Shown here: in pieces, positions 1,843 through 32,834 of the stretch | How the letters are laid out: each line of letters starts with the position of its first letter | How positions within the stretch are numbered: the stretch's first letter is position 1 | Assembly (NCBI GenBank): GCA_020632215.1 | Contig: JACKFZ010000001.1 | Location: forward strand, 83,444 to 120,683 | Source: Candidatus Nomurabacteria bacterium | GTDB taxonomy: Bacteria; Patescibacteriota; Minisyncoccia; Phycocordibacterales; JAACPR01 | DNA length: 37,240 nt | Direction of reading: 5' to 3' | Translations under genes and position numbers: made by a program | Notes under the pieces: generated by a model | The model's database searches: none | Told to the model about the DNA's origin: nothing | The model's input: the letters and a program-made list of their open reading frames with translations, nothing else

Positions 1843-1870
1843 AATGTAGAATGTAGTATTTAGTATGTAG
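1843..1870 (+). repeat. Four tandem 7-nt units directly after the ftsI stop
   Basis: aatgtag aatgtag tatttag tatgtag, read directly. Confidence 0.75.
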
Positions 1871-1875
1871 ATCTT

Positions 1876-3186
1876 ATGAAAGAATTTCTTAAAAAAATAA
1901 TAATCAAAATAATTACTTGGGAATCTAGATTGGTGCTAGCTCGTTTTAGACCAAAAATTATTGCTGTTGTTGGAAGCGTAGGGAAAACTTCTACCAAGGA
2001 TGCTGTTTATTCTGGTTTAAAAAATATTTTATATATTAGAAAAAATCAAAAAAGTTTTAATAGTGAAATAGGTGTACCTCTTACTATTCTTGGTTTAGCT
2101 AATGCATGGGGGAATTATGGATTGTGGTTTTGGAATGTTATTAGGGGATTTCTAACTATATTTTCTTTTAATTATCCAAAATGGCTCATTCTTGAGCTTG
2201 GAATAGATAGACCCGGTGATATGAAAAAATATGCGTCTTGGATAAAGCCAGATGTTGTTATCCTTACTAGTTTTCCTGATGTGCCAGTGCACGTAGAATA
2301 TTTCGAATCTCCTGAAGATGTTATTGCAGAGAAAAAAGAAATTTTAAAATCTTTGAAGTATGACGGTGCTTTGGTACTGAATGCAGACGACCCAAAAGTC
2401 TTTGCGGTAGCAGAAGAGATGAAAAGTAAAATAAAAAAGGTTGTCACATTTGGACTTTCAACAAAAGCAGACGTTTCTATTTCAAATATGGATGTTATCT
2501 ATGAAAATTTTGATAATCATCAAGTGCCAACCGGCGTTTCTTTCAAAGGAAATTATAATGGTAACTCAGTTCCTATTGCTCTACACGGTGCGTTAGGAGT
2601 ACAGCATATTTATCCGATGGCTGCTGCTATGGCTACTGCTCTAGTATTAGATCTTCCTATACTATCTGTTGTTGATGCTCTGCATTATCATCAGGTGCCA
2701 AAAGGTCGAATGAATATTATAGAAGCTATAAATAATTCTGTTTTGATAGATGACTCATATAATGCTTCTCCAGAGTCTATGTCTAAGGCAATTGAAGTAT
2801 TGGGCCAATTAGAGACTAATAGTTCAAAAATAGCCATTTTGGGCGATATGCTTGAAATTGGAAAGTACACCGTTAGGGAGCATAGACGGATAGGGGAAAT
2901 GGTTAAAAATCAGGGTATAAATTTTCTATTCGCTATTGGACTTCGTTCAAAGGATATGGCTTTGGCAGCAGTAGAATCTGGTATGTCCGAGGACCATGTT
3001 TTTCATTTTGATTCATCAGAAGAAGCCATTGAGACAGTTTTGAAATATATAAAGCCTTATTCTCTAATTTTAATAAAAGGTTCTCAAGGAGCTAGGATGG
3101 AGAAAATATCTGGAGCTATTATCAAAGATCAAGACAACAAAGATGATCTGCTTGTTAGACAGGAAGGGGAGTGGGAAAGGAGATAA
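1876..3186 (+). CDS. murF: UDP-N-acetylmuramoyl-tripeptide--D-Ala-D-Ala ligase
   Basis: GSVGKTSTK P-loop, NSEIGVPLT, DDSYNASP, LGDMLEIG and IKGSQG motifs of MurF. Confidence 0.93.
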   Translation: MKEFLKKIIIKIITWESRLVLARFRPKIIAVVGSVGKTSTKDAVYSGLKNILYIRKNQKSFNSEIGVPLTILGLANAWGNYGLWFWNVIRGFLTIFSFNYPKWLILELGIDRPGDMKKYASWIKPDVVILTSFPDVPVHVEYFESPEDVIAEKKEILKSLKYDGALVLNADDPKVFAVAEEMKSKIKKVVTFGLSTKADVSISNMDVIYENFDNHQVPTGVSFKGNYNGNSVPIALHGALGVQHIYPMAAAMATALVLDLPILSVVDALHYHQVPKGRMNIIEAINNSVLIDDSYNASPESMSKAIEVLGQLETNSSKIAILGDMLEIGKYTVREHRRIGEMVKNQGINFLFAIGLRSKDMALAAVESGMSEDHVFHFDSSEEAIETVLKYIKPYSLILIKGSQGARMEKISGAIIKDQDNKDDLLVRQEGEWERR

Positions 3187-3190
3187 GAAT

Positions 3191-3354
3191 CAAAAATTCG
3201 AAGTACGAAATACGAAATCCGAAGCAAATATTAAATTTTAATAAATAAATTATAAACAAATAGTGAAATTTATACTTGTCTAATATTAAAACCAGGTACT
3301 ATATTTATAGCTTAATATTTAGAATTTGTTTCGGATTTCGATATTCGGATTTAC
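3191..3354 (+). mobile_element. ORF-less copy of the heptamer-inverted-repeat element that carries the four-helix-bundle gene at 10.6-11.1 kb
   Basis: Left arm cgaagta cgaaata cgaaatc cgaagca; right arm tgtttcg gatttcg atattcg gatttac. Positions 3240-3274 are identical (35 nt) to 10605-10639. Mobility is inferred. Confidence 0.75.
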
Positions 3355-3382
3355 CTGACTGCTAGCAGGACGCTTTGTCTCA

Positions 3383-3410
3383 TTTACATTTTATTTCAAA
3401 GTGCTATCAT
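3383..3410 (+). promoter_or_regulatory. Sigma70-type promoter for the leader-ridA-ilvA transcript
   Basis: TTTACA (3383-3388), 16-nt spacer, TGc-TATCAT extended -10 (3402-3410). Confidence 0.6.
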
Positions 3411-3418
3411 CTAAAGAC

Positions 3419-3493
3419 ATGACAAATATAGCTATCTACAACATTATAATTATTATGAGCTCAGGGCGAGGCAGAGGTCTGATTTGTGTCTAG
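3419..3493 (+). CDS. Ile-rich attenuator leader peptide (24 aa, ilvL-like)
   Basis: MTNIAIYNIIIIMSSGRGRGLICV*: six Ile codons in the first 12 (four consecutive), upstream of a terminator and of ilvA. Confidence 0.75.
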   Translation: MTNIAIYNIIIIMSSGRGRGLICV

Positions 3494-3514
3494 TTGTAGA
3501 AAATAGATAGAAAT

Positions 3515-3539: not shown

Positions 3540-3572
3540 AAATTAATAATTAATAGTTGATAATCAATAATT

Positions 3573-3956: not shown

Positions 3957-3960
3957 AAAT

Positions 3961-5211: not shown

Positions 5212-5222
5212 AGTGGTGGTGT

Positions 5223-5534
5223 TTAAGTTAACGCAATGTCTTTCAGGTATTTAGATACAGAGTCGTATCCTTTCTTTATTGCTTTTTGCTCTATCTTTTT
5301 CTTATCTTCTGCTGAAACTCTGAATCTAATAACTTCTCCTTTTTTGGCATTATATTTTTGTTCTGCAATAATTAGATTTGGTAAATCTAAAATCAACTCA
5401 GGAATATCTTCAGCTAGAAAATTTTGATCAATTTTTGCATCTTTAGAGGTAAAGTGAATAGTCCCATCTTTATTTTTTTCTAAAGCATAAGAATAAATTT
5501 TGTTTTTTATTGTAATATTTGCTTTTGTTTTCAT
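5223..5534 (-). CDS. hicB: HicB-like antitoxin with C-terminal ribbon-helix-helix
   Basis: Overlaps the hicA stop; C-terminal VIRFRVSAEDKKKIEQKA...SVSKYLKDIAL is RHH-like; the N-terminus is a degenerate HicB-type fold. Confidence 0.6.
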   Translation of the reverse strand: MKTKANITIKNKIYSYALEKNKDGTIHFTSKDAKIDQNFLAEDIPELILDLPNLIIAEQKYNAKKGEVIRFRVSAEDKKKIEQKAIKKGYDSVSKYLKDIALT

Positions 5535-5773
5535 AATAAATATTTGATAATTTTATATATTTGTCTTTTATAAAATGGCTTGCATTCGTTACTATGGATG
5601 GGAACTATAACATCGTTAGGGAATTTCTGATTTTTATATTTCACATGACTACCTTTTGTCTGGATTTTTTCAAAGCCAAGTGATACTAGTATTTTTTCTA
5701 TATCTCTAAACTTTAACTTTTCTGGATCTTCTTTGAATTTGAATTTAGCAATCAGCTTATCCCTAATTGTCAT
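5531..5773 (-). CDS. hicA: HicA family mRNA interferase toxin
   Basis: LKFRDIEKILVSLGF...KGSHVKY...VIVPIH pattern of HicA. Confidence 0.85.
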   Translation of the reverse strand: MTIRDKLIAKFKFKEDPEKLKFRDIEKILVSLGFEKIQTKGSHVKYKNQKFPNDVIVPIHSNECKPFYKRQIYKIIKYLL

Positions 5774-5776
5774 GTA

Positions 5777-6475: not shown

Positions 6476-6745
6476 GGGCAGGCTTAATGAAACTCGCAAG
6501 ATCTAAGCGATACAAAAATACATATCGCTTCGCTATATGTATTTTTTATCGTGTGAGTCTACCGGGAATCGGTCACAAGTCACTAAGCTTTTTGTCTCGC
6601 TCGTAGACTCGCTCACAAAAATCTAAGTGCTCGCGACCCCGCCTCGAAAGCTTCGCTTTCTCCGGCCTTCGATTATCTCCTCAGGAGATTCACTAAGAAC
6701 AAAAATAGCCCCGGATAAACCGGGACTATTTTGGTCCTGTGACCC
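6476..6745. repeat. Copy 1 of a 263-270 bp direct repeat of the tRNA-Glu downstream region
   Basis: Colinear with and highly similar to 7695-7957. Contains a degenerate tRNA 3'-end copy (6553-6571) and several hairpins. Confidence 0.9.
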
Positions 6746-6834
6746 AAGTGGGACAGAATTGGAACCAATTGGTTAGAGAACTACAAGTATGGCAGGTTTT
6801 TGGAAAGGAAGTATTTGAGAACAAGACCGCTTAA
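6739..6834 (+). pseudogene. Possible C-terminal tail of a lost site-specific recombinase at an att junction
   Basis: VTQVGQNWNQLVRELQVWQVFGKEVFENKTA* begins exactly at a degenerate tRNA-end copy (gtgaccc). The recombinase-tail identity is inferred from resemblance only. Confidence 0.4.
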
Positions 6835-6845: not shown

Positions 6846-7562
6846 CTAACCATGAGCCATATTAGTAAATTTCTCTATCTCTCCGTAGTTTTTTGAACCA
6901 TCAAGGTTTTGGACTCCTGTCTCGACATCAACACCATAAAATCCTCCAACCTCCATTGCAGCTTCTAAATTTATAGTTTTCAATCCTCCTGCCAGCCATA
7001 CAGGTAGATTACTTTCTTCTAATATTTTTTTACTAATAGACCAATCATGAGTTTGCCCTGTCCCTCCTGTCATATCTCCAACTTTTGAATCTAGAAGAAT
7101 TGCACTCAGAACGCCTGTCTCTTCATATCTTTTTGCCTCTTGTATAGCATCATGACCCGTAACATGGATAACTTTTACAATCTCAAGGTCTGGAAGTGCT
7201 TCTTTGATTTTCAATACTTCTTCAGGTGAAATATCACCTGTTAACTGAATGTGCGATGGCTGTACTCTGTTTGCAAAGTTAATATTAGTTTCTGCATCCT
7301 CTGCATTAGTAAGCATAAAAGTCTTTATATCACCATGTGACTTTTTTAATGTCTCAACTATTTCTACTGCTTGTTCCTCAGGAATATTATTTTTTGCTAG
7401 CTCTTTATCAAAGCCGACTAATACACCTATAGCATCTGGATGCAGATTACATATTTTATTTGCTTCCTCTACTGTTCTTACACCACAAATCTTAACTTTT
7501 AATTTAGGAGTCGATTCTATACTCTCAGTCACTTCCGTCTTTGGGTTACTTTGTTCTGGCAT
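6846..7562 (-). CDS. trpF: Phosphoribosylanthranilate isomerase (PRAI)
   Basis: KVKICG, HIQLTG, ILLDS...GGTGQTHDW, VWLAGGL and GVDVETGV motifs. Confidence 0.88.
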   Translation of the reverse strand: MPEQSNPKTEVTESIESTPKLKVKICGVRTVEEANKICNLHPDAIGVLVGFDKELAKNNIPEEQAVEIVETLKKSHGDIKTFMLTNAEDAETNINFANRVQPSHIQLTGDISPEEVLKIKEALPDLEIVKVIHVTGHDAIQEAKRYEETGVLSAILLDSKVGDMTGGTGQTHDWSISKKILEESNLPVWLAGGLKTINLEAAMEVGGFYGVDVETGVQNLDGSKNYGEIEKFTNMAHG

Positions 7563-7694: not shown

Positions 7695-7957
7695 GGGCAG
7701 GCTTAATGAAACTCGGCGAGATCTAAGCGATATAAAATTACATATCGCTTCGCTATATGTATTTTTATCGTGTGACCCTACCGGGAATCGGTCACAAGTC
7801 ACTAAGCTTTTTACTTCGCTCCACTCGTAAAAATCTAAGTGCTCGCGACCCCGCCTCGAAAGCTTCGCTTTCTCCGGCCTTCGATTATCTCCTCAGGAGA
7901 TTCACTGAGAACAAAAATAGCCCCGGATAAACCGGGACTATTTTGGTCCTGTGACCC
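7695..7957. repeat. Copy 2 of the tRNA-downstream direct repeat, including the att-like copy at 7772-7790
   Basis: See 6476-6745. Positions 7772-7790 (gtgaccctaccgggaatcg) are identical to 7951-7969. Confidence 0.9.
7914..7944 (-). terminator. Intrinsic terminator downstream of tRNA-Glu
   Basis: Minus strand aaaatagtcccgg-tttat-ccggggctatttt (13-bp stem with one G:U) ending in Ts; a second copy lies in repeat 1. Confidence 0.7.
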
Positions 7958-18480: not shown

Positions 18481-18576
18481 TTCATAAAAAATTTAACTTT
18501 TCTTTTATTTTTCTTTATATCACTTATGCTAAAATGAACTTAGGTGGTAAGTGGTTAACCCCCACCCTTGGGCGGG
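18481..18576 (+). repeat. Copy 2 (uninterrupted) of the promoter plus conserved 40-nt unit
   Basis: See 8773-8940; TGc-TAAAAT at 18527-18535. Confidence 0.85.
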
Positions 18577-18632
18577 AAATTTATCTAAATTTTAAAATTT
18601 AGATTTTGGATATTTTAAGATAGCCTAATTTT

Positions 18633-20626: not shown

Positions 20627-20685
20627 TTTTTGTCTCACCCACCAACATCAACAGGGAAGAGGAGACCCCTTTTTAGTAACTTAAT

Positions 20686-20737
20686 GAGATTCTGAATGTG
20701 GGTCCCTCGACTTCGCTCGGAACTCCTTCAGAATGAC
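20686..20737 (-). repeat. CGTC-tagged REP-like palindrome
   Basis: Minus strand (c)gtcattctgaa...ttcagaatctc, with an internal gcgaag/cttcgc motif. Confidence 0.6.
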
Positions 20738-20829
20738 GGAGGGTTGTGTTAGAAGGATTTGAATAAAATGTCAATTCATTGTTTTATTTGAGGCACCTGT
20801 GGATAACTTCAGGGGGCCCTTCTCTATAT

Positions 20830-21055
20830 ATGTCGCACAATATATCTTTTCCGACATAATACCGTACATTTAACTATAAATTATATATTTATATAATGTT
20901 GATCATATAACTAACTAAGCATGTATCTTGGATACTTGTCGGAAAAGATGGCGCGATTGTGCGACTAAAAATACACCTCATTTCTATTAAAAATACACCT
21001 CATTTCTATATTTATTACTATTTCGTAATTTTGTCGCACAATCGCTTTTGCGACA
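20830..21055. other. Three related palindromic sites (TGTCG...CGAC) plus a 22-bp tandem duplication
   Basis: Sites at 20830-20857, 20937-20966 and 21032-21055; tandem taaaaatacacctcatttctat at 20966-21009. Confidence 0.7.
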
Positions 21056-21403
21056 TAATACTATATAAATAACTATAAATAATACAGCGTGATAATGATC
21101 TAGATAATGAATTTATGTCCTACTTCTCTACTATATTTATAAATAAAAGGTAATAAAGAGTAAATTTATTTCTTTATAATTCTCTTTATTTTTAGTCCTA
21201 TTAACTATTTACTACGAACTACTGACTAATTTTACGAGGCTCAAAATGCCTCAATTTGATGCCTTGAATATGTGAGACTATGGATTGATCATCTATTTTT
21301 TCTTTTAATATTAGGGAAGTCGAGTATATAGAAAAAGTTACTCCTCTCCCCTTTTTATTTTAAAAAATTAGGGGACTGGGATTTTTATTTTTAAAATTTA
21401 TAA

Positions 21404-21428
21404 GATCCCAAATCAAGTTTAGGATGAC
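21404..21428 (-). repeat. CGTC-tagged REP-like palindrome
   Basis: Minus strand (c)gtcatcctaaacttgatttgggatc, just after the stop of 21437-21661. Confidence 0.6.
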
Positions 21429-21436
21429 GCTGTGCG

Positions 21437-21661: not shown

Positions 21662-21677
21662 TAATTAATAGTATATC

Positions 21678-21748
21678 AGTAAATAGTAAATACTAAATAG
21701 TAAATAGCTCTGTTTTTTCTATTTACTATTTACTATTTACTATTTAGT
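21678..21748. repeat. Heptamer-periodic inverted repeat (about 30-bp stem, 11-nt loop)
   Basis: agtaaat agtaaat actaaat agtaaat ag / ct atttact atttact atttact atttagt. Confidence 0.9.
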
Positions 21749-21753
21749 AATTA

Positions 21754-23058
21754 CTAGAAGTAATCTAACGGATTTAAGTATGCATTTAAGGCCGCTATAG
21801 GAACATAAGCATTTTTACAACCAATACTATTGCTGAATTGTTGAACTTTTACAGCATCTTTGGGGAAAATGCTCATATGTAGATGGGCCGCTGTAGAATA
21901 TCCGGTATTACCACTAAGACCAAGTAAGGCACCAGTTTGCACAGATTCTCCGGCTTTAACAGAACGAACGGATAGATGGGCATATAAAGCTGTTAGACCG
22001 TTGTTGTAATCAACCAATATCCATTGGCCGTAAGATTTACATCCTGGCACCGCATCCATGTTGTAAGTTGACCTTACAACTCCATTTGCGCTAGCATAAA
22101 TTTTTGTTCCTATTGGAGCTCGAAAATCAACTCCACGATGAGGATTTGGCTGGCCATTTGAGTATCCATATGCACCAGATAATGCAAAAGAGGTTAAACC
22201 AAAGCCTTGAGTAACCACAGGTTCGGAAACAGGGTATTTCAATACCCCACTCCCCTTGTTTGGCAATTTGCTTGGATCAAGAGTAAATTGTAATTGTGAT
22301 TCTAATGCGTTCAAGTCACTTTCTATCTGAGCTCGAGCTGCTTCTTTCTCTTTTAATATTCTTTGATACTCAGCTTCTGTACTTTTTGTAACAGTCAGTA
22401 GTTGCTGCTTTTCTTGTTTGGTATAGGCTACAGCTGATTTTTCTCCTGATAATTCTTTTTTCAAGCTTTCCAGATTTACTTTTTCCTCGACTTTTTCCTG
22501 ATGGTCTTCTTGTAAGGCTGAAGTTAAATCCTGTAGATTTAGGACAGTGCCATACACACTAGCTTTAAAAGCTTCTAGGTTTCTAAGATCATTAAAAACT
22601 TCTGAAAAGTTTTTTTTGAAAAGAATAATTTCTATTAGAGATTCTGATTCACTTTGGTTCATGTCTCTTATAGTTTTTGCTAAAACATCTCTATTGTTTA
22701 GAATTTTTGTTTCTTTGTCTGTGATTTCTAATTCTAGTTTATTTAGAGCGTAATTACTTTCATTGATACCAGTTTCAGTCTTCTGTATCTCTGTACCAAT
22801 TTTCTTCTCAGTTAAATTGAGGGAATTTACAGTAGTTTGTAATGTAGTTGTTTGTTTGTTTATTTCTACTAACTTTGCTCTTTGCTCGGCAATTTCTTTG
22901 TCTAGTTTTTCTTTGGCAATTCTTTGCTCTTCAATTTTTTCTTGCAATTCATCAACTGTCTCGGCTTTTGTTATTGGAACCGAGTTTGATATAAAAATAA
23001 AAAGTAGAATCAGAATTGGAGATATTATTTTATTCTTTTTCAATTTTAGATATTGCAT
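21754..23058 (-). CDS. Coiled-coil M23 family peptidase (EnvC-like architecture)
   Basis: Signal/TM, long coiled coil, HRGVD, YAHLS and HLH motifs. Confidence 0.88.
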   Translation of the reverse strand: MQYLKLKKNKIISPILILLFIFISNSVPITKAETVDELQEKIEEQRIAKEKLDKEIAEQRAKLVEINKQTTTLQTTVNSLNLTEKKIGTEIQKTETGINESNYALNKLELEITDKETKILNNRDVLAKTIRDMNQSESESLIEIILFKKNFSEVFNDLRNLEAFKASVYGTVLNLQDLTSALQEDHQEKVEEKVNLESLKKELSGEKSAVAYTKQEKQQLLTVTKSTEAEYQRILKEKEAARAQIESDLNALESQLQFTLDPSKLPNKGSGVLKYPVSEPVVTQGFGLTSFALSGAYGYSNGQPNPHRGVDFRAPIGTKIYASANGVVRSTYNMDAVPGCKSYGQWILVDYNNGLTALYAHLSVRSVKAGESVQTGALLGLSGNTGYSTAAHLHMSIFPKDAVKVQQFSNSIGCKNAYVPIAALNAYLNPLDYF

Positions 23059-27538: not shown

Positions 27539-27543
27539 ATAAA

Positions 27544-27745: not shown

Positions 27746-29350
27746 TTAAACCCTCACTTTCTGATATTTCTTCCCTTTCATAAAAACATTCATAAAATAC
27801 TTTCTTAGATTTTCATCACAAATGTAAACATAAGTTCCTTTGATTCCTCGTGTTAATAAGGTTTTATAAATATTAATAATATATTGTTCTAATTCTTCTG
27901 GAGAAGCAGATCTTTTTCCATTAAAGTCCATGTATTTATTTTTATCTATAATAAATTTAGTATTTTCAAAATCGTATGAAATCTCTGGACCAATGATTAC
28001 ACCAGTGTAGTTTAAATCGTATCCTTGTATTGTATGAATACAACCAATTTCATTTATAGAATTTTCTGATTCTACCCAACCTTCGGTTTTACTATTCCAA
28101 ACTAGTTCTAAACCATTAATTTTTATATCAAACTTTTCTTTTTTCTTTTTTGTGTGCCAAGGCCACGCGTATCCTGCGACAACACGAGATAACCCATGAA
28201 TTTTATTATGAGTCTTTATATCAGTAATCATCTTTCCAATGTCATCATATATTTGGAAATCATAATCTTTAAAAGTGACTGGATTGAGATTTACATTTTC
28301 AAAAATACCTTCTATAAAAGAAATATATTCTTCACCACCTTCTACTCTCATTTGACTTGTTAATTCTCGTTTTGTTGCTTTTAAATTACTGAAAATTTCT
28401 CTGTTAATGTCAGCGGGTCTTATGGTTTGGTTTTGATCATATAGAAAGATATGATTTTTGGACGAATTCAATATCCAGTCTAACTGTGTGGATTCTTTAG
28501 GCAATTTTAGTTTTTTGTTTGTATCATCATAACTTTTAAAATTTGCTAGATTTAATCTTTGTTGCAGACGATGAGATTCATCAACTATTAATAAATCGTA
28601 TTTCTTTTTTGTTACATCATTTGGTCCAAGTATCATTGATGATTTTAATCCTTTAACTTTTGAAAAAACTTTTTTTATTGTTTTTCTCAATGATGTCATT
28701 GGAACAACTAAACCAATTTCTAGATTTTCGGTAGCTTCTTTTTCTTTTAAATATTTCAACAAATAAATAGCAAGAACCGTTTTTCCTGTTCCTGGTTTTC
28801 CATTTATTAAATAAGTTATATCTTGGCCATCTTTTAATTTTTTATAAATTTCCTTTACAAGTAGTAATTGATCATCACTAAGAGTTTTGTATGGAGAATA
28901 TTTGAATAAATCACTATTTTTTAATTCTTGTAGATCATTTGTAACTAATTTATGATTTCTTAATTTTTGCCAGATTATCTCTTCAAATTTAGTTTTATAT
29001 TTTTCTCGATCAAAGTAGTTATGATTTTTGAGACCACCATTTCCATTTTGTAAGGTTATAGATTCTTCGGCAGAAATATATTGTATGAGCCAAGATTCAG
29101 TGTCTAATGTTGCAGACTTATTATATTCTTGATCGCTTATAATATGGATGTTTTTTAACTTTCTTCTCTCTGGTTTTTCGAAATGTTGCTTACTTCTGTA
29201 ATAAGCATTTATTGTTTCTCCAATATACATTTCTTTACATCCTTTTATGTCTTCTATGATATAGACAACTGGCCAATTTTTTCCAAAATGGTAATTTTTA
29301 ATTTTTTCAAAACCCTCTTGTTTAAAAGGAAAAGTTATTATTTGTGTCAT
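27746..29350 (-). CDS. GIY-YIG nuclease fused to DUF2075 (Schlafen group 3-like) helicase
   Basis: VVYII...MYIGET...RSKQH (GIY-YIG), GKPGTGKT, IVDESHR, SQMRV, IHTIQGYDL and YKTLLTRG motifs. Confidence 0.88.
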   Translation of the reverse strand: MTQIITFPFKQEGFEKIKNYHFGKNWPVVYIIEDIKGCKEMYIGETINAYYRSKQHFEKPERRKLKNIHIISDQEYNKSATLDTESWLIQYISAEESITLQNGNGGLKNHNYFDREKYKTKFEEIIWQKLRNHKLVTNDLQELKNSDLFKYSPYKTLSDDQLLLVKEIYKKLKDGQDITYLINGKPGTGKTVLAIYLLKYLKEKEATENLEIGLVVPMTSLRKTIKKVFSKVKGLKSSMILGPNDVTKKKYDLLIVDESHRLQQRLNLANFKSYDDTNKKLKLPKESTQLDWILNSSKNHIFLYDQNQTIRPADINREIFSNLKATKRELTSQMRVEGGEEYISFIEGIFENVNLNPVTFKDYDFQIYDDIGKMITDIKTHNKIHGLSRVVAGYAWPWHTKKKKEKFDIKINGLELVWNSKTEGWVESENSINEIGCIHTIQGYDLNYTGVIIGPEISYDFENTKFIIDKNKYMDFNGKRSASPEELEQYIINIYKTLLTRGIKGTYVYICDENLRKYFMNVFMKGKKYQKVRV

Positions 29351-29351
29351 A

Positions 29352-29699
29352 TTAAAGTTTGTTATATTTGGTATGTTTTCCTTTGGATTTTTTTACTGGG
29401 TACTTTTTACTATTTATTTTTATTTTTCTTTCAAGAGATTTCGCAATATCTATTTTAAGATCATTAGACATTAACAGAATCCAGTATAAAACATCAGCTA
29501 ATTCTTCTGAGATTTCAGTTTTTTGTTTTTTTATATATTCTTCAATTTCTTTTTCATTTTTCCATTGAAAATGTTCTAGCACCTCTGCTGCTTCAAGAGA
29601 TAAAGAAATAGCACAATCTTTTGGGTTATGAAATTGTTTCCAATTTCTTTTATCTCGAAAGTCTGTTATTTGTTTTGTTAGTTTAGAAATCTCACCCAT
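29352..29699 (-). CDS. MazG-like nucleotide pyrophosphohydrolase
   Basis: RNWKQFHNPKD, EAAEVLE and EELADV motifs. Confidence 0.9.
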   Translation of the reverse strand: MGEISKLTKQITDFRDKRNWKQFHNPKDCAISLSLEAAEVLEHFQWKNEKEIEEYIKKQKTEISEELADVLYWILLMSNDLKIDIAKSLERKIKINSKKYPVKKSKGKHTKYNKL

Positions 29700-29708
29700 A
29701 TATAACGC

Positions 29709-29742
29709 TATTTAACCACTCCCAATCCCAAAATTCAACCTC
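29709..29742. repeat. 34-bp direct repeat, copy 1
   Basis: tatttaaccactcccaatcccaaaattcaacctc, identical at 30535-30568. Confidence 0.95.
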
Positions 29743-29861
29743 TCAAAAGTCTATATTCAGGGATGTTGATAACCTTGATTTTAGTCTAGAAAAATGATAT
29801 ACATATTGCATACCTATCTCGAGGTTAATTCGGGAAAACGATCCACAAAGACCTGACTTGC

Positions 29862-30524
29862 TCAGGCCTTTGTTTTTATTTTAGTAATGTGTTTCTTTAT
29901 TCTTTGTGCATTAATAATTAAATCTGCTGTTTTTCTCAAATAAGATGTTATGTTTCCTGCTTTTATTAGAATAATTCTTTTACCAGCCTTTTTCAAAAAA
30001 TTATTTAAATAAGTGAAATCTGAATCACCAGAAAAAAGACAAAAAGTATCATAGTGTTTTAACATTTTTATAGCATCAACAGACATTTCGACATCAAAAT
30101 TACTCTTTCTAATTTCTATATATTTTTTACCTTTTTTGTCGGTATGTAGTTCATCAAACAGACTCAGATCTTCCGATTCAGGGTAGTGTTTTATTTTTTG
30201 CAGTTTTTTAGTTATAAAGTTTCTTTTACCAAATATTTTGGCATTTACGTAAGTATATCTTTTTGATCCTAAATTATTTGGATCATATCCATAATAATTT
30301 CTAACTTTACTAGAAAATATATCAGCAAATCGTTTCAATCCCTCAAGATTAATTACTATTTTTTGATTATCATCTAATTGGTTATTGTCATAATCTTGTC
30401 GATCTTCTTCAAACCAATTGTTTACATTCCCAAAGTCTATAAATGAAAATATGTTGGCAAATTCTTCTGTTATTCCAAGATCATCACGGATATATTGTTT
30501 TTTAAATTCTTCCAGAGTAGACAT
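29862..30524 (-). CDS. NYN domain (LabA/DUF88, PIN-like) protein
   Basis: FIDFGNV, KSNFDVEM and LFSGDSDF acidic motifs. Confidence 0.88.
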   Translation of the reverse strand: MSTLEEFKKQYIRDDLGITEEFANIFSFIDFGNVNNWFEEDRQDYDNNQLDDNQKIVINLEGLKRFADIFSSKVRNYYGYDPNNLGSKRYTYVNAKIFGKRNFITKKLQKIKHYPESEDLSLFDELHTDKKGKKYIEIRKSNFDVEMSVDAIKMLKHYDTFCLFSGDSDFTYLNNFLKKAGKRIILIKAGNITSYLRKTADLIINAQRIKKHITKIKTKA

Positions 30525-30534
30525 GATTATCTGT

Positions 30535-30568
30535 TATTTAACCACTCCCAATCCCAAAATTCAACCTC
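30535..30568. repeat. 34-bp direct repeat, copy 2
   Basis: Identical to 29709-29742; abuts and overlaps the stop codon of the M48 gene. Confidence 0.95.
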
Positions 30569-31115
30569 ACACCAACCCCTTCAATTCCCTCTCCCACTTC
30601 TTATAATCTGGACAAAAGGTGGCTACTAGAGCCCAGTAACTTTTGCTGTGGTTTAGAAACTTCAAGTGGCACAGTTCGTGAATGATGACATAATCTCGGA
30701 TTTCGGGCTTAGTGAACATTAGCTTGTAGTTGAAGTTCAAATAACCTTGTGATGAACAACTTCCCCATCTACCTCTTTGATTTCTAATGCTAATTCTTTT
30801 GTATTTTAAACCAACTTTTTGACTGAGCTTCTCAACTCTCTCAGTAATCACTTTTCTAGCTTCTTCTTTATGTTTTTGATAATGCCTTTTAGAAAAAATA
30901 GTTAGATCTTTGTTTTCAATTTTATTTATCTTTTTATCTATTTTGGCTAAATGTCTTTTGATCCATTCTATATGTCTATTTACAAAAGAATGAATAGATT
31001 CTTCTTGCACTGTATAAGGAGCTACAGCTGTGACAAGGCCATTAGGAGAAATAGTGACACTCATTCTTTTAGCTCTGTAGCTTCTACGAACTTTGTAAGG
31101 GATGTTGTGGGGCAT
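30567..31115 (-). CDS. M48/YgjP (DUF45) family metallopeptidase
   Basis: RWGSCS and YVIIHELCH (HExxH) motifs. Confidence 0.9.
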   Translation of the reverse strand: MPHNIPYKVRRSYRAKRMSVTISPNGLVTAVAPYTVQEESIHSFVNRHIEWIKRHLAKIDKKINKIENKDLTIFSKRHYQKHKEEARKVITERVEKLSQKVGLKYKRISIRNQRGRWGSCSSQGYLNFNYKLMFTKPEIRDYVIIHELCHLKFLNHSKSYWALVATFCPDYKKWERELKGLV

Positions 31116-31565
31116 CTATTTAAACAATCCTACTATTTTTTCTAAAGGAATAGAAACAAGAAGTGTTCCAATGGCTACAAGTGTAAGTCCAATTCCTGTT
31201 TGTAAAGTAATTCCTTCTGCTAAAACAAAAACAGCAAGTATGGCTGTGAAAATTATAGAAAGTTTATCAATCACTGTCACAGCTACAGTTGGACCGACAG
31301 ATAAAGCTTGGTAGAAAAAGATCCAAGACAGCGCTCCTCCAACACCTGACAAAACTACAAAGACCCATTGCTTTTGAGAAAGAGATTGAATAGCGGTTAG
31401 AGAAAGTTTTCCAAAAGAAAGAGCTGCTACAGAAACAATAATAGCCATGACTATTCCTCTAATAGCCGTTAGAAGATTTGAATCAACTCCTTTCAATCCT
31501 ATCTTGGCAAAAATGGTTCCGACACTGGCCATTAATGCTCCAAGTAATGCGTAGATGATGTACAT
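31116..31565 (-). CDS. EamA family (DMT) membrane protein
   Basis: IFAKIGLKGVDSNLLTAIR, SWIFFYQALSVG and VIDKLSI motifs; hydrophobic. Confidence 0.85.
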   Translation of the reverse strand: MYIIYALLGALMASVGTIFAKIGLKGVDSNLLTAIRGIVMAIIVSVAALSFGKLSLTAIQSLSQKQWVFVVLSGVGGALSWIFFYQALSVGPTVAVTVIDKLSIIFTAILAVFVLAEGITLQTGIGLTLVAIGTLLVSIPLEKIVGLFK

Positions 31566-31608
31566 GTTGAGTTAATTTAAAGTTAATGATTGATAATGAA
31601 AATTTAAA

Positions 31609-32115
31609 TTATAACTCTTTTGAATTAAATCCGAGATTTTTTAGAAGCTGGTCTCGAACTGAGATTGCACCAACGAACAAAACAGTTTCAATATCTTCCC
31701 CAGATTTAAAAGCACCATCTTTGAGTCTTTCTGTAATGTCAGGACATAATGTTTCTAAAGCTAGAATACTTTCGGTAATTTCTCTTTCAGCATCGTAAGC
31801 AGTTTGTGGATTTTTATCTTTTACATCTTTTTCGATGACATCAATTTTTTTATTTAAGATTTGATCAATTTTGCTTTCTTCTAAAATAGCTAAACCACGT
31901 TCGTTTAACTGTCTAGGGGATTTTGCAGGCGCTGTTCTGTCAGCCCACAAATCATCAACTCTTGATTTGACTACCGAGAAATTTTTTCTGACATCCTCCA
32001 AGTCTTCTAGAATTTGTAGTTTTTTACCAGTTTTTATAAAAAAACCAATTAGTGTCGGCACACCAACTATAACAACAATAGTATTTATTATTTCAATTAA
32101 ACTCATGCTTTGCAT
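31609..32115 (-). CDS. Hypothetical protein with N-terminal TM helix
   Basis: 168-aa ORF; hydrophobic N-terminus followed by a charged helical region. Confidence 0.65.
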   Translation of the reverse strand: MQSMSLIEIINTIVVIVGVPTLIGFFIKTGKKLQILEDLEDVRKNFSVVKSRVDDLWADRTAPAKSPRQLNERGLAILEESKIDQILNKKIDVIEKDVKDKNPQTAYDAEREITESILALETLCPDITERLKDGAFKSGEDIETVLFVGAISVRDQLLKNLGFNSKEL

Positions 32116-32180
32116 TATAGCAGATTGATATGAAATAAGAATAAAATTTGTATGAAATTTAAATTTTTAGATAAAAAGAA

Positions 32181-32238
32181 GCGCCATGCCACGTGTCGCG
32201 TAAAGGCTGTTAGGCCTACGCGATTTACGTGGCGGCGC
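32181..32238 (-). terminator. Long GC-rich hairpin downstream of the orphan gene
   Basis: gcgcc...gccacgtg-tcgcgta...tacgcga...acgtggc...ggcgc; followed by ttcttttt on the minus strand. Confidence 0.6.
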
Positions 32239-32256
32239 GTCGATGTCGTTACTTAC

Positions 32257-32664
32257 CTACCGATAGACTGTCCATTCCACGACTTCTTTGAATGTAATTC
32301 CTCCTAGTCCTGGCACTGATAAGAGCTTTTGAGTCTGACAGAACATCAGTCGGATACCGGCTTCTTCAGCCAGTCTTTCAGCCAGTGCATCTACGGCAGA
32401 CTCTTCATGGGGTCCAATGTTCATGATCTCGATCCGAAAGAAGTTCTCCGGTTCGTGGGCCCCGCTCTCGTCGAAGTGGCAAAAAGTGGTTAAGAATATC
32501 AGATTGTATTCACACTGACGTTCCTTGTGCCAGCGCTTGATAATTTTGCCCAGACTGGATTCAGTGTTCAAGGTTTTTTCCTTTGTGTCTTTCCTTCGAT
32601 CTTGTGCCTCGGGGACGAAAAGGACCACTGACGGGTTAAATGTATTTATGGCAGATTTTTCCAT
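32257..32664 (-). CDS. Hypothetical protein (orphan; GC-richer)
   Basis: 135-aa ORF with an upstream minus-strand TTGACA-16-TAATGT (TG-extended) promoter and a downstream hairpin. Confidence 0.6.
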   Translation of the reverse strand: MEKSAINTFNPSVVLFVPEAQDRRKDTKEKTLNTESSLGKIIKRWHKERQCEYNLIFLTTFCHFDESGAHEPENFFRIEIMNIGPHEESAVDALAERLAEEAGIRLMFCQTQKLLSVPGLGGITFKEVVEWTVYR

Positions 32665-32780
32665 GGTACTTCGGGGTTCGGGTTCATCCGAACATTACCA
32701 TTCTTATACTAAATGTCAATTACCTGTATATATTAAAAAGATCTTGAATCAAGATCAGTATGACGGTGTTTTTATTTCTT

Positions 32781-32834
32781 CTGACGTCTGATGTCTAATT
32801 TCTGAAAACTGATCGCTGATAGCTGACAGCTGAA
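32781..32834. repeat. Eight 7-nt-periodic units directly after the mraY stop
   Basis: ctgacgt ctgatgt ctaattt ctgaaaa ctgatcg ctgatag ctgacag ctgaa. Confidence 0.85.

What the first reader, a model, noticed from the sequence alone, without database searches (positions are those of the whole stretch)
1843..32834. System-level: family of 7-nt-periodic elements just after stop codons, in loaded, empty and solo forms
Seen: five loci carry runs of heptamer units starting within 1-15 nt of a stop codon, read in the gene's direction: after ftsI (aatgtag-type, solo), murF (cgaaatc-type, paired arms, no ORF), rmuC (cgaaata-type, paired arms around a four-helix-bundle gene), the M23 gene (agtaaat-type, bare hairpin) and mraY (tcagcta-type, solo). 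The heptamer sequence differs between loci, but the period and position do not. Known: TIGR02436 four-helix-bundle proteins were first found in 23S rRNA intervening sequences bounded by a stem, and they are structurally related to the DGR accessory protein Avd. Inference: this is an mRNA-level intervening or mobile element whose arms form a long stem looping out the cargo ORF, with the protein recognising the 7-nt register. Four of the five host genes are cell-wall or division genes.
Basis: partly seen in the sequence, partly recalled or inferred. Interest (0 to 1): 0.85.

Follow-up and report, generated by a model that had tools for sequence, protein, structure and literature searches.

The report
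Heptamer-armed four-helix-bundle gene cassettes
The 7-base repeat runs are real, and the core of them is a small, apparently mobile gene cassette: an Avd-like four-helix-bundle gene framed by two inverted arms of four 7-base units, which sits just after stop codons in many bacterial phyla and leaves gene-less and one-armed remnants.

Summary
The window's 5.15 kb of intergenic DNA holds 10 runs of period 7, against 0.02 expected and none at neighbouring periods.

The loaded element (10559-11085) and the gene-less copy after murF (3194-3352) are one element. The second has lost exactly the ORF.

In 80 loci from other genomes, homologues (53-62% identical) from many phyla have the same design:
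- upstream stop codon;
- (AAATYCG)x4 + AAACAA;
- ATG, four-helix-bundle ORF, stop;
- TTGTTT + (CGRATTT)x4;
- next gene.

The cassette is co-oriented with the upstream gene in 34 of 36 cases. A second PF05635 subfamily has GAGTGAC x4 arms, and the published Coxiella 23S intervening sequence has GACAGAT repeats.

Close relatives of the window organism lack the element at the rmuC|rplU site or carry a different one there.

The arms pair with a 7-nt phase. Positions 1, 2, 6 and 7 of each unit pair; positions 3-5 are often mismatched.

The best reading is a selfish, intervening-sequence-type cassette living in operon spacers.

Not shown:
- excision at the RNA level;
- the protein reading the 7-nt register, which is plausible by analogy with Avd.

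Rejected: the link to cell-wall genes.

Unproven: that the solo arrays (AGAATGT, TCAGNNN) belong to the same family.

The parts
10559..10593 (+). Left arm of the loaded cassette: AAGTTCG AAATACG AAAAACG AAATTCG AAACAAG. The first two A's are the last two bases of the rmuC stop codon TAA (10558-10560).
   Evidence: Sequence; TRF; inverted repeat I1. It is 97% identical to the left arm in L081, a Parcubacteria locus whose ORF is only 62% identical.
10594..10678 (+). 85-nt leader between the left arm and the ATG, with its own small hairpin (ATAAACAAATA...TATTTGTTTAA). It is also kept in the ORF-less copy. Most homologous cassettes have only 0-30 nt here. No Shine-Dalgarno sequence lies before the ATG.
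   Evidence: (repeat D2: 115 nt, 88% identity to 3194-3308).
10679..11023 (+). Cargo gene: a 114-aa four-helix-bundle protein (TIGR02436 / PF05635, the 'S23p' family, Avd-like).
   Evidence: TIGR02436 69.7 bits against a cutoff of 24. PF05635 53.1 bits against 33.8. PDB 2RLD, E 4e-13. AlphaFold2 pLDDT 95.8 with four helices. Foldseek: 2RLD TM 0.81, 2GSC, and the DGR Avd entries 8UB7/4DWL at TM about 0.7.
11024..11050 (+). 3' spacer between the stop codon and the right arm (..TATTTATTGGGTAGAATTTAGAATT). The stretch TATTTATT occurs here and just before the ATG, at the edges of the deletion seen in the ORF-less copy.
   Evidence: (repeat D8).
11051..11085 (+). Right arm of the loaded cassette: TTTGTTT CGTATTT CGATTTT CGTATTT CGTGCTT. 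It ends 10 nt before the conserved rplU promoter (TTGCAA, 16-17 nt, TAGAAT/TAAAAT).
   Evidence: I1; closing stem, z -5.65. The promoter is conserved in L089, L091 and L093.
3194..3228 (+). Left arm of the ORF-less copy: AAATTCG AAGTACG AAATACG AAATCCG AAGCAAA. It starts 7 nt after the murF stop (3184-3186).
   Evidence: (D2, I2).
3229..3324 (+). Interior of the ORF-less copy. It consists of the same leader as the loaded element joined directly to the 3' spacer. The ORF is missing exactly, as in a MITE-like internal-deletion derivative.
   Evidence: Alignment A2; repeats D2 and D8; RNA fold z -4.5.
3325..3352 (+). Right arm of the ORF-less copy: TTTGTTT CGGATTT CGATATT CGGATTT.
   Evidence: (D8, I2).
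21667..21757 (-). Bare heptamer hairpin, co-oriented with the M23 gene. The stop codon TAG is followed by TAATTAC, then (TAAATAG)x4, then AAAAACAGAGC, then TATTTAC TATTTAG TATTTAC TATTTAC. It shows the same plan of four units per arm, with an A-rich inner end and no cargo. It fills the spacer up to the next gene's start (21661).
   Evidence: I4: 33-nt arms, 91% complementary; MFE -33.9 kcal/mol, z -7.9.
1836..1872 (+). Solo array AGAATGT AGAATGT AGTATTT AGTATGT AG between ftsI and murF. It resembles a right arm of the TAG/CTAAAT flavour (xGnATTT units ending a few nt before the next ATG). No partner arm is present.
   Evidence: In a distant relative (L085) the orthologous ftsI|murF spacer is filled by a complete two-armed heptamer hairpin.
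32778..32835 (-). Solo array of eight TCAGNNN units, starting 2 nt after the mraY stop (32836-32838). No inverted partner is present. Membership of the family is not established.
3541..3571 (+). Solo array AATTAAT AATTAAT AGTTGAT AATCAAT, ending at the ridA ATG (3573).
18584..18614 (.). Weak period-7 array (AAATTTA-type) in the spacer between the converging genes def and rpmA.

Best explanation
The window carries members of a widespread family of small selfish cassettes. They are of the same kind as the ORF-bearing intervening sequences (IVS) of 23S rRNA, but here they live in the spacers between protein-coding genes.

Anatomy. A complete cassette is about 480-530 bp. It has a left arm of four 7-nt units plus AAACAA, an ORF of about 115-120 aa for a PF05635/TIGR02436 four-helix-bundle protein (S23p, Avd-like; homologues crystallise as pentamers), and a right arm that is the inverted copy of the left one. 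It starts within a few bases of the upstream gene's stop codon and often supplies part of that codon. It points the same way as that gene and usually has no Shine-Dalgarno sequence of its own.

Proposed working (inferred). The cassette is most likely transcribed by read-through from the host gene. In the transcript, or in single-stranded DNA, the arms pair into a roughly 35-bp duplex that loops out the ORF. The duplex is phased: the AA and CG of every unit pair, while the three middle positions are variable and often mismatched. I infer that this 7-nt-phased duplex is the cis-acting site recognised by the cassette's own ring-shaped protein. The precedent is the DGR protein Avd, whose five protomers grip an RNA stem-loop through flipped-out bases. 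As in Coxiella, the duplex would also be an RNase III substrate.

Spread and decay. Cassettes spread to new spacers or hairpin loops by a mechanism that is still unknown. They decay into ORF-less two-armed copies (3194-3352), bare hairpins (21667-21757) and single arms.

Shown: the anatomy, its conservation across phyla and across a second protein subfamily with a different heptamer, co-orientation with the upstream gene, presence/absence at orthologous sites, ORF-less and nested copies, and the phased pairing.

Inferred: RNA-level folding and processing, protein binding, and the way the cassette moves.
For: 1. The period-7 signal is real: 10 runs in 5.15 kb of spacers against 0.02 expected, with 0-1 at neighbouring lags.

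2. The two window copies are one element, with 88% and 84% identity over the flanks and the ORF deleted exactly.

3. Eighty loci of 53-62%-identical homologues come from Planctomycetota, Desulfobacterota, Verrucomicrobiota, Bacteroidota, Chloroflexota, Patescibacteria, Omnitrophota and one Pacearchaeota bin. Most show the same arms. The consensus left arm is AAATtCG AAataCG AAattCG AAATtCG AAACAA, and the reverse complement of the right arm is AAATCCG AAATtCG AATaTCG AAATcCG AAACAA. The commonest number of units per arm is 4 (22/39 and 29/39 loci).

4. Position: the upstream gene is on the same strand in 34 of 36 loci. The left arm starts -9 to +15 nt from that gene's stop in 23 of 34. The right arm ends 0-19 nt before the next start codon in 17 of 26.

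5. The arms are better conserved than the cargo: about 76-78% against 63.5% pairwise identity. For the window against L081 the figures are 97%/91% against 62%.

6. Pairing: 57 of 80 full-length folds have at least 20 long-range pairs closing the element, with a median of 34. The window folds give z -5.65, -4.5 and -7.9. With the arms in register, 77.8% of cells pair, against 74.2% in shuffles and 54%/46% when slid by one column. There are 105 double-change cells against 68.7 +/- 8.7 (0 of 500 shuffles reach this). The flavour base x in C-x-AAAT is the same in both arms in 50 of 56 loci (G 31, T 12, C 5, A 2).

7. Phased mismatches: positions 1, 2, 6 and 7 of each unit mismatch in 4-15% of cases, positions 3-5 in 40-66%.

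8. A second PF05635 subfamily, in Udaeobacter-like genomes between efflux-operon genes (a membrane-fusion protein and an ABC ATPase), has GAGTGAC x4 arms that abut the ATG and the stop. L106 and L107 show one armed cassette nested inside a second pair of arms. The Coxiella IVS has 3-4 GACAGAT units before the S23p ATG and an RNase III cut at the first unit (PMC4990558).

9. Turnover at orthologous sites. After rmuC, L094 (88% identical RmuC) and L091 (74%) have no heptamers. L093 (86%) has an ORF-less CCAAAT-type element plus a remnant of a CG-type right arm, and a CG-type left arm after rplU instead.

10. ORF-less pairs (9) and solo arms (27) of the same family occur in the 470 kb sampled.

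11. The protein fold is S23p/Avd-like. In the DGR ribonucleoprotein all five Avd protomers contact an 11-bp stem-loop, and flipped-out bases sit in the crevices between protomers (10.1101/2023.10.23.563531).
Against: - There is no sign of selection on the sense-strand RNA: 89 G:U against 92 A:C mismatches.
- Complementarity within an element (77.9%) is barely above left-versus-right identity between different elements (74.5%). The arms may therefore be held to a consensus as protein sites or DNA ends, rather than being selected to pair.
- Pairing of the start codon with the 3' flank appears in only 10-18 of 80 folds.
- The cassette encodes no nuclease, recombinase or reverse transcriptase, and none lies in the window, so the means of movement is unknown.
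- No target-site duplication could be defined, because the ends (AAAT...ATTT) are palindromic with A/T-rich flanks.
- The Coxiella study concluded that its S23p is probably not translated.
- The 80 loci were chosen because they carry the gene, so the frequency of arms without genes is not measured genome-wide.
- The solo arrays in the window have other heptamers and could be plain slippage repeats.
Confidence: 0.6

Rival explanations
1. The cassette moves at the DNA level, like REPINs with RAYT or like MITEs. The heptamer arms are terminal inverted repeats, or hairpins in single-stranded DNA, that are cut and joined by an enzyme encoded elsewhere in the genome. The four-helix-bundle gene is then a passenger or an accessory DNA-binding factor, and RNA folding plays no part.
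For: - G:U and A:C mismatches are equally common.
- The arms are conserved towards a consensus, with fixed left/right differences (an AAGCACG unit on the left, CGATATT on the right), as expected for transposon ends.
- ORF-less two-armed copies and solo arms are common.
- Nested arms (L106, L107) and serial occupancy of one site (L093) look like insertion into an existing hairpin.
- A gene flanked by inverted copies of a dispersed intergenic repeat is the layout of RAYT genes (REPIN paper PMC3116915, for the concept).
Against: - No transposase is known or seen, and no target-site duplication was found.
- The very strong co-orientation with the upstream gene (34/36) and the start at the stop codon point to a dependence on transcription. 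Selection for expression of the ORF could, however, give the same bias.
- The closest studied relatives of the protein act on RNA: Avd, and the Coxiella IVS is processed as RNA.
Confidence: 0.2
2. The elements are host regulatory devices rather than selfish DNA. Heptamer hairpins after stop codons would act as mRNA 3'-end stabilisers, RNase III processing sites or attenuators inside operons. The four-helix-bundle protein would be a regulator that binds such stems, including its own as a form of autoregulation.
For: - The elements sit tightly in operon spacers and leave the neighbouring genes intact.
- Bare hairpins fill whole spacers at the same junction (ftsI|murF) in a relative whose MurF is only about 41% identical, and a second such hairpin lies upstream of its ftsI-like ORF.
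- Vertical retention at one efflux-operon site across 74-92% protein identity.
- The Coxiella authors suggest the RNA part matters more than the protein.
Against: - Presence or absence varies among close relatives at the rmuC|rplU site.
- The distribution is patchy across phyla, with cargo 53-62% identical.
- ORF-less and degraded copies, and nested copies, are typical of selfish elements.
- The host genes are unrelated to each other.
Confidence: 0.15
3. The period-7 arrays are ordinary simple-sequence repeats made by replication slippage. Heptanucleotide repeats are reported as the commonest long simple-sequence repeats in prokaryotes. On this view their nearness to the four-helix-bundle gene is a coincidence.
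For: MacGregor 2015 (PMC4679880) summarises earlier work that heptanucleotide repeats are the most abundant class in most genomes, possibly because of polymerase slippage, and describes intergenic TAACTGA arrays. The window's solo arrays (AGAATGT, AATTAAT, TCAGNNN) have no partner and no cargo.
Against: Slippage does not explain the following:
- inverted pairing of two arrays around one gene;
- a fixed number of four units;
- a conserved inner end (AAACAA / TTGTTT);
- the same arm sequence in phyla whose cargo genes are about 60% identical;
- a different but equally organised heptamer in a second subfamily.
Confidence: 0.05

Closest known systems
ORF-bearing intervening sequences (IVS) of 23S rRNA (Leptospira, Coxiella burnetii, Brucella) encoding S23p
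   Same: - The cargo family is the same (PF05635/TIGR02436).
- The size is the same (about 430-530 nt).
- Inverted arms close a stem around the ORF.
- The Shine-Dalgarno sequence is poor or absent.
- The distribution is sporadic and suggests horizontal transfer.
- The Coxiella IVS has 3-4 tandem heptamers (GACAGAT) directly upstream of the ATG, and RNase III cuts at the first of them (PMC4990558).
   Different: - The elements here are not in rRNA. They lie in spacers after the stop codons of unrelated protein-coding genes, co-oriented with the upstream gene.
- The arm design of four units plus AAACAA, its conservation across phyla and its gene-less derivatives have not, as far as I could find, been described for the IVS.
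- Processing by RNase III is untested here.
Avd, the accessory protein of diversity-generating retroelements (DGRs)
   Same: The fold is the same four-helix bundle (Foldseek TM about 0.7 to 4DWL and 8UB7). Avd is a pentamer whose five protomers bind an RNA stem-loop by way of flipped-out bases. That is a ready model for a ring reading a phased stem.
   Different: - No reverse transcriptase, template repeat or variable repeat lies next to the gene in the window.
- Sequence identity to Avd is only about 13%.
- The subfamily was not found in 2.9 million viral contigs.
REP/REPIN elements and their RAYT genes
   Same: - Both are short intergenic palindromic repeats, often just after stop codons.
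- Both are dispersed as hairpin doublets.
- In both, the associated gene is itself flanked by inverted copies of the repeat.
- Both have many non-autonomous copies.
   Different: The flanked gene here is a small helical bundle with no HUH/Y1 nuclease motif. The repeat is built from phased 7-nt units. Mobilisation by the protein is unproven.
MITEs (miniature inverted-repeat transposable elements)
   Same: The copy at 3194-3352 keeps both arms and the untranslated parts and has lost the ORF by internal deletion. This is how MITEs derive from full-length elements.
   Different: The parent element has no transposase, and no target-site duplication could be defined.
Heptanucleotide repeat arrays: cyanobacterial STRR and the TAACTGA arrays of Beggiatoaceae, Cyanobacteria and Bacteroidetes
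   Same: Both are tandem 7-nt units. Both are intergenic and close to start or stop codons, with a patchy phylogenetic distribution and unknown function (PMC4679880; the STRR repeats are from my own knowledge of Mazel et al. 1990).
   Different: Those arrays are described as direct repeats without a defined partner arm or cargo. No link to PF05635 genes is made in the papers I could read.
Integron attC sites
   Same: Both are imperfect inverted repeats whose folded form, with extra-helical bases, rather than their sequence, is what the protein recognises. Both are associated with single-ORF cassettes.
   Different: An attC site lies on one side of its cassette and is recombined by a tyrosine integrase. 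No integrase is present here, and here the arms flank the ORF on both sides.

Membership tests
TIGR02436 / PF05635 four-helix-bundle (S23p) proteins | Match to the family profiles above the curated cut-offs | tested here: met
   TIGR02436 69.7 bits (cutoff 24). PF05635 53.1 bits (cutoff 33.8).
TIGR02436 / PF05635 four-helix-bundle (S23p) proteins | Up-down four-helix-bundle fold like 2RLD and 2GSC | tested here: met
   AlphaFold2 pLDDT 95.8, helices at 7-23, 29-54, 58-81 and 86-113. Foldseek: 2RLD TM 0.81, 2GSC TM 0.78-0.81.
TIGR02436 / PF05635 four-helix-bundle (S23p) proteins | Homopentameric ring | not testable with these tools
   The PDB entry 2RLD has five chains. The oligomeric state of this protein was not modelled.
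23S rRNA intervening sequence (IVS) with S23p ORF | Inserted in a helix tip of the 23S (or 16S) rRNA gene | tested here: not met
   Both window copies lie between protein-coding genes (murF|ridA and rmuC|rplU). Rfam finds no rRNA in the window.
23S rRNA intervening sequence (IVS) with S23p ORF | Inverted arms that form a stem enclosing the ORF | tested here: met
   Inverted repeats I1 and I2; folds; 57 of 80 loci have at least 20 closing pairs.
23S rRNA intervening sequence (IVS) with S23p ORF | Excision from the transcript by RNase III without religation | not testable with these tools
   This needs transcript-end mapping. The only precedent is Coxiella.
Diversity-generating retroelement (DGR) | An adjacent reverse transcriptase and a template/variable repeat pair | tested here: not met
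   Family searches on 40 of the window's ORFs, including all the long ones, found no reverse transcriptase. The repeat search shows no TR/VR-like pair near the gene.
REPIN / RAYT system | The flanked gene is an IS200/IS605-like Y1 (HUH) transposase | tested here: not met
   The flanked gene matches only PF05635/TIGR02436.
REPIN / RAYT system | Dispersed intergenic hairpin doublets of the same repeat that flanks the gene | tested here: met
   The window has the ORF-less copy at 3194-3352. Nine ORF-less pairs and 27 solo arms occur in the 470 kb of loci.
MITE | Terminal inverted repeats, no ORF, derived from a longer element | tested here: met
   Alignment A2 shows that the ORF alone is missing.
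MITE | Target-site duplication and a cognate transposase | tested here: inconclusive
   The flanks are A/T-rich and the ends are palindromic (AAAT...ATTT), so no clear duplication can be read. No transposase is known.
Heptanucleotide simple-sequence repeats (STRR / TAACTGA type) | Tandem direct repeats of a 7-nt unit in intergenic DNA | tested here: met
Heptanucleotide simple-sequence repeats (STRR / TAACTGA type) | The same unit sequences (CCCCAGT, TTGGTCA, CAACAGT or TAACTGA) | tested here: not met
   The units here are AAATYCG, AAATAGT, AGAATGT, AATTAAT and TCAGNNN. Only the reverse complement of TCAGNNN (NNNCTGA) resembles TAACTGA.

The most novel reading that the evidence does not exclude
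PF05635 four-helix-bundle genes with their heptamer-phased arms form a distinct, very widespread class of mobile element that carries no transposase. The ring-shaped, Avd-like protein would read one 7-nt unit per protomer on a folded arm pair. That would account for the four to five units against five protomers, and for the flipped-out middle bases. The protein would then direct copying into other hairpin loops or spacers, possibly with a cellular reverse transcriptase or nuclease. The decay products of this class (bare hairpins and solo arms) would be a main source of the long-noted excess of heptanucleotide repeats in prokaryotic genomes, including the cyanobacterial STRR and TAACTGA-type arrays. 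The 23S rRNA intervening sequences would be just the first members seen.
Probability: 0.2. Interest if true: 0.9.

Novelty: new variant of a known kind. Interest (0 to 1): 0.68.

Why it matters
PF05635/TIGR02436 'four helix bundle protein' genes are among the commonest unexplained small genes in bacterial genomes: both protein searches hit the 8,000-candidate ceiling. Their only studied contexts are rRNA intervening sequences and DGRs.

This work shows that they come as a defined cassette with phased 7-nt arms, placed after stop codons in operons across many phyla and in an archaeal bin. That gives the family a cis-acting partner, a testable binding model borrowed from the Avd/stem-loop structure, and a reason for their scattered, gene-by-gene distribution.

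It also offers a concrete source for at least part of the unexplained abundance of heptanucleotide repeats.

There are practical consequences too. The arms break short-read assemblies: the Logan contigs end 69-74 nt from the element's neighbours. They also supply stop codons and spacers that gene callers and operon predictors should know about.

Tried and rejected
1. Rfam, at gathering thresholds and at E <= 0.1, has no family for the arms or the hairpin. It found only a tRNA and one weak chance hit.

2. The wobble test for selection on the sense-strand RNA gave no asymmetry: 89 G:U against 92 A:C.

3. Sequestration of the start codon in the stem, which I first read off several loci (TTCGAATG / CATTCGAA), holds in only 10 (fully) to 18 (partly) of 80 folds, so it is not a general feature.

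4. Phage carriage: the subfamily was not found in IMG/VR viral contigs, and the second subfamily gave one weak hit.

5. A metagenome scan with MurF, meant to find empty murF|ridA sites, returned only three distant loci (38-53% identity), so that junction could not be compared in close relatives. L085 was still useful for the ftsI|murF junction.

6. Exact-protein look-ups for the window's own proteins returned only contigs that break inside the repeat.

7. The association with cell-wall genes is rejected.

8. Coupling of protein clade to heptamer flavour is only weak: 61.7% identity within a flavour against 58.3% between flavours. This is significant by permutation but is equally expected from common descent.

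9. Literal sequence searches of the literature for the arm motif found nothing relevant. The Elhai 2008 paper on cyanobacterial small dispersed repeats, some of which lie within tandem heptameric repeats (as I recall from its abstract), is not held, so I could not check it for a link.

10. No own promoter for the cargo gene stands out. The promoter-like hits in the region are at the chance level, apart from the conserved rplU promoter.

Full report
**What is in the window.** The window is 33% G+C. It encodes a compact set of housekeeping genes:
- an FtsI-class transpeptidase, MurF, RidA and IlvA;
- a HicA toxin pair, TrpF and a tRNA;
- YqeY, RmuC, L21, RecR, DnaB, CysS and CorA;
- an S41 protease, L9, Def and L27;
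- an M23 peptidase, GltX, MurG, FtsW and MraY;
- a D,D-carboxypeptidase, ScpA/B and a class II tRNA synthetase.

Homologues of RmuC and of the four-helix-bundle protein that carry a name come from Parcubacteria/Paceibacterota and other Patescibacteria. The source is therefore very probably a bacterium of the candidate phyla radiation (CPR).

**Check of the observation.** The sequence shows them directly.

A lag-autocorrelation scan finds 10 runs at lag 7 at the stricter threshold, and at most one at every other lag except lag 14, a multiple of 7, which has three. Within the 26 intergenic spacers (5,151 nt) there are 10 lag-7 runs. The mean was 0.02, and the maximum 1, in 500 first-order Markov simulations. 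All strong arrays are intergenic although 86% of the window is coding.

Five arrays begin within 7 nt of a stop codon, or overlap it, when read in the direction of the gene (ftsI, murF, rmuC, M23, mraY).

**The loaded and the empty forms are one element.** The sequence after murF (3194-3352) matches the sequence around the four-helix-bundle gene over 115 nt on the left (88%) and 51 nt on the right (84%). The alignment shows that the copy after murF lacks exactly the ORF. The stretch TATTTATT lies at both edges of the missing segment in the loaded copy, so a deletion between short direct repeats is plausible.

Each arm reads as 7-nt units:
- Loaded, left: AAGTTCG AAATACG AAAAACG AAATTCG AAACAAG.
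- Loaded, right: TTTGTTT CGTATTT CGATTTT CGTATTT CGTGCTT.

Folding as RNA gives a long closing stem for the loaded copy (z -5.65), the ORF-less copy (z -4.5) and the bare hairpin after the M23 gene (z -7.9).

Read in the M23 gene's direction, that hairpin has the same plan. The stop codon comes first, then four AAATAGT-type units, an A-rich inner end, a few bases where the cargo would be, and four inverted units.

**The decisive result: the arms belong to the gene everywhere.** I aligned 32 homologues of the protein and fetched 80 loci from a one-genome-per-species collection. The proteins are 53-62% identical to the window's. They come from Planctomycetota, Desulfobacterota, Verrucomicrobiota, Bacteroidota, Chloroflexota, many Patescibacteria, Omnitrophota, Ignavibacteriales and a Pacearchaeota bin.

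Most of these genes are framed by inverted arms made of the same units. The consensus left arm is AAATtCG AAataCG AAattCG AAATtCG AAACAA. The reverse complement of the right arm is AAATCCG AAATtCG AATaTCG AAATcCG AAACAA.

In the 39 loci that my parser could delimit cleanly:
- The commonest number of units is four in each arm (22 and 29 loci).
- The upstream gene is on the same strand in 34 of 36.
- The left arm starts between -9 and +15 nt of that gene's stop in 23 of 34.
- The right arm ends 0-19 nt before the next gene's start in 17 of 26.

Often the host's TAA is the T before the first AAAT unit. There is usually no Shine-Dalgarno sequence, and the ATG follows AAACAA within 0-30 nt.

The arms are better conserved than the cargo. 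Pairwise identity is about 76-78% for arms against 63.5% for the ORF. For the window and the Parcubacteria locus L081 the arms are 97% and 91% identical while the ORFs are 62% identical.

**Flavours and a second subfamily.** The unit comes in four flavours, C-G-AAAT, C-T-AAAT, C-C-AAAT and C-A-AAAT. The two arms of one element carry the same flavour in 50 of 56 loci, so the change is compensated across the stem and shared by all units.

Outside the cassette, the same 80 loci hold 49 more period-7 arrays (9 at lag 6, 17 at lag 8), many of them as inverted pairs with quite different units. One such pair, GAGTGAC/GTCACTC in L026, encloses a 131-aa PF05635 protein of another subfamily.

I followed that subfamily. 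In Udaeobacter-like genomes it sits in an efflux operon, between a membrane-fusion protein gene and an ABC ATPase gene. It again has four units per arm, abutting the ATG and the stop, and the upstream stop codon lies inside the first unit. In L106 and L107 a complete armed cassette lies inside a second, outer pair of arms.

The published Coxiella burnetii IVS gives a third case. It has three or four GACAGAT units directly before the S23p start, with copy number varying among strains, and RNase III cuts at the first unit (PMC4990558).

**Evidence for movement.** Five lines of evidence point to mobility.

1. The window has two copies at unrelated sites.

2. The rmuC|rplU site differs among relatives:
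   - L094 (RmuC 88% identical) has no heptamers after the stop.
   - L091 (74%) has a 211-nt spacer without heptamers.
   - L089 has another gene there.
   - L093 (86%) has an ORF-less CCAAAT-type element, plus a fragment (GTGCTTCGGATTTATAT) that matches the outer end of the window's right arm. It also has a CG-type left arm after rplU, where the window has none.

3. ORF-less pairs (9) and solo arms (27) of the AAAnnCN family occur in the 470 kb of sampled loci.

4. The distribution across phyla at about 60% protein identity, with near-identical arms, is hard to explain by vertical descent. The element is not carried by phages as far as IMG/VR shows.

5. Vertical retention also occurs: the efflux-operon site above, and several pairs of orthologous insertions.

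**What the arms look like as a structure.** Full-length folds of 80 elements give at least 20 pairs between the 5' and 3' flanks in 57 cases, with a median of 34.

With the arms placed in register (alignment A3), 77.8% of cells form standard pairs. The figure is 74.2% when partners are shuffled among sequences, and 54% and 46% when partners are slid by one column. There are 105 double-change cells against 68.7 +/- 8.7, a value reached by none of 500 shuffles. Relatedness among the sequences can inflate such counts, so I treat this as support, not proof.

The mismatches are phased. Positions 1, 2, 6 and 7 of each unit (AA..CG) fail to pair in only 4-15% of cases, and positions 3-5 in 40-66%. 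The predicted duplex is thus a string of short conserved helices, 7 nt apart, separated by variable and often open triplets.

Two results argue against a simple 'any stem will do' RNA model. G:U and A:C mismatches are equally frequent (89 and 92). And an element's left arm matches its own right arm hardly better than it matches the right arm of another element (77.9% against 74.5%). The arms look as if they are held to a consensus, with fixed left/right differences. That fits recognition by a protein.

**The protein.** It passes the TIGR02436 and PF05635 cut-offs. It matches the S23-family structure 2RLD (five chains) at E 4e-13. It is predicted with pLDDT 95.8 as a four-helix bundle.

Foldseek ranks 2RLD and 2GSC first, followed among bacterial proteins by the DGR protein Avd in 4DWL and in the DGR ribonucleoprotein 8UB7, at TM about 0.7.

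In that ribonucleoprotein, all five Avd protomers contact an 11-bp RNA stem-loop. Bases flipped out of the stem enter the crevices between protomers, and each protomer uses the same residues (10.1101/2023.10.23.563531).

By analogy, a ring of five subunits meeting a stem with four to five phased open sites is an attractive model for the heptamer register. This is an inference, and nothing here tests it.

**Most likely working, and rivals.** I think the elements are selfish cassettes of the IVS type that have colonised operon spacers. On this view they are transcribed by read-through, which would explain the co-orientation, the start at the stop codon and the lack of a promoter or ribosome-binding site. 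They would fold through their arms and be bound by their own protein. They spread by an unknown route and decay into ORF-less copies, bare hairpins and single arms (confidence about 0.6).

- The main rival is movement at the DNA level, with the arms as ends or single-strand hairpins used by an enzyme encoded elsewhere, as for REPINs and RAYTs (0.2). The wobble result, the consensus-like arms and the nested arms favour it. The orientation bias and the RNA-directed relatives of the protein count against it.
- A host regulatory role, as an RNA processing or stabilising hairpin with a cognate binding protein, cannot be excluded and could coexist with selfish spread (0.15).
- Plain slippage is excluded for the armed cassettes. 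It remains possible for the window's solo arrays (0.05 overall).

- The association with cell-wall and division genes is local to this window. Upstream genes at 19 other loci encode amino-acid permeases, glutamate synthase, MacB, ATP synthase alpha, SecA, a pilus protein, iron-sulfur proteins and others (three gave no Pfam hit); only one is a cell-wall enzyme.
- Excision or circularisation at the mRNA level is not shown.
- The AGAATGT array resembles a right arm of the CTAAAT/TAG flavour, and it sits where right arms sit. In a distant relative the same ftsI|murF spacer holds a full two-armed heptamer hairpin. Even so, it and the AATTAAT and TCAGNNN arrays have no partner and no known cargo, so their membership stays open.

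**Comparison with what is known, and novelty.** The following are already known:
- S23p-encoding intervening sequences with stem-forming arms.
- The heptamers in the Coxiella IVS.
- The structural kinship with Avd.
- The occurrence of 23S_rRNA_IVP genes in rRNA insertions of CPR bacteria (10.1101/2024.02.27.582315).
- The general excess of heptanucleotide repeats, and the TAACTGA arrays (PMC4679880).
- From my own knowledge, the cyanobacterial STRR heptamers and Elhai's small dispersed repeats, some of which lie within tandem heptameric repeats.

I found no paper that links these facts. None describes PF05635 genes as cassettes with arms of four phased 7-nt units, placed after stop codons in operons across phyla, with gene-less derivatives and subfamily-specific heptamers.

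The library does not hold most subscription journals, so a prior description cannot be excluded. I rate this as a new variant of a known kind.

Noticed in passing
window 6496-6753 and 7716-7965: Two direct repeats of about 255 nt (92-96% identical) flank the trpF-like gene (6846-7562). The right copy runs 14 nt into the 3' end of the tRNA gene at 7952-8023 (minus strand). The segment 6-8 kb is 40-43% G+C against about 33% elsewhere. This may be a small integrated or duplicated segment.
   Followed up: no
window 8773-8964 and 18481-18600: A repeated promoter-like A/T stretch (TTCATAAAAAATTTAA...) is followed by TTAGGTGG and then GGTAAGTGGTTAACCCCCACCCTTGGGCGGG. The second copy lacks the roughly 70-nt middle part. 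It looks like a small structured RNA gene and a truncated copy. There is no Rfam match.
   Followed up: partly
window 11096-11123; L093 1340-1370; L091 3750-3780; L089 5235-5265: rplU has a conserved promoter of its own (TTGCAA, 16-17 nt, TAGAAT/TAAAAT) right after the cassette. The window's cassette therefore sits at the end of the rmuC transcription unit, not inside an operon. The L21 protein has an N-terminal extension of about 22 aa.
   Followed up: partly
window 27746-30571: A possible defence or stress island: a Schlafen-like helicase (27746-29350), a MazG-like protein (29352-29699) and an NYN-domain protein (29862-30524). The NYN gene is flanked by a 37-nt direct repeat, 97% identical (29709-29745 and 30535-30571).
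   Followed up: no
window 5223-5773: A HicA toxin gene (5531-5773, minus strand) lies with a downstream partner that has a NikA-like ribbon-helix-helix match (5223-5534). This is a likely toxin-antitoxin pair.
   Followed up: no
window 20627-21436: An 810-nt stretch with no ORF of 60 aa or more. It holds a perfect 22-nt tandem duplication (20966-21009) and a 53-nt repeat (20846-20898 and 21045-21097, 75% identical).
   Followed up: no
L106 and L107, 640-1180: Nested arms: a complete GAGTGAC-armed cassette lies inside a second, outer pair of the same arms. The outer arms match those of the single cassette in L102. This suggests insertion into, or replacement within, an existing empty hairpin.
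   Followed up: partly
L093 1120-1290 and 1819-1851: At the window's rmuC|rplU site this close relative has an ORF-less CCAAAT-type element with a G+C-rich inner hairpin, plus a remnant of a CG-type right arm. A CG-type left arm begins after rplU. The site is therefore a hotspot with turnover of element types.
   Followed up: yes
L085 563-659 and 2425-2500: In a groundwater CPR relative (MurF 41% identical), both the spacer upstream of its ftsI-like ORF and the ftsI|murF spacer are filled from stop to start by two-armed heptamer hairpins of a GAATTAN type.
   Followed up: partly
L001-L003, L087, L088 (Logan contigs of the same organism): Short-read contigs carrying the window's own genes end 69-74 nt into the element on either side. 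The repeat breaks assemblies, so such elements are probably under-represented in metagenome bins.
   Followed up: no
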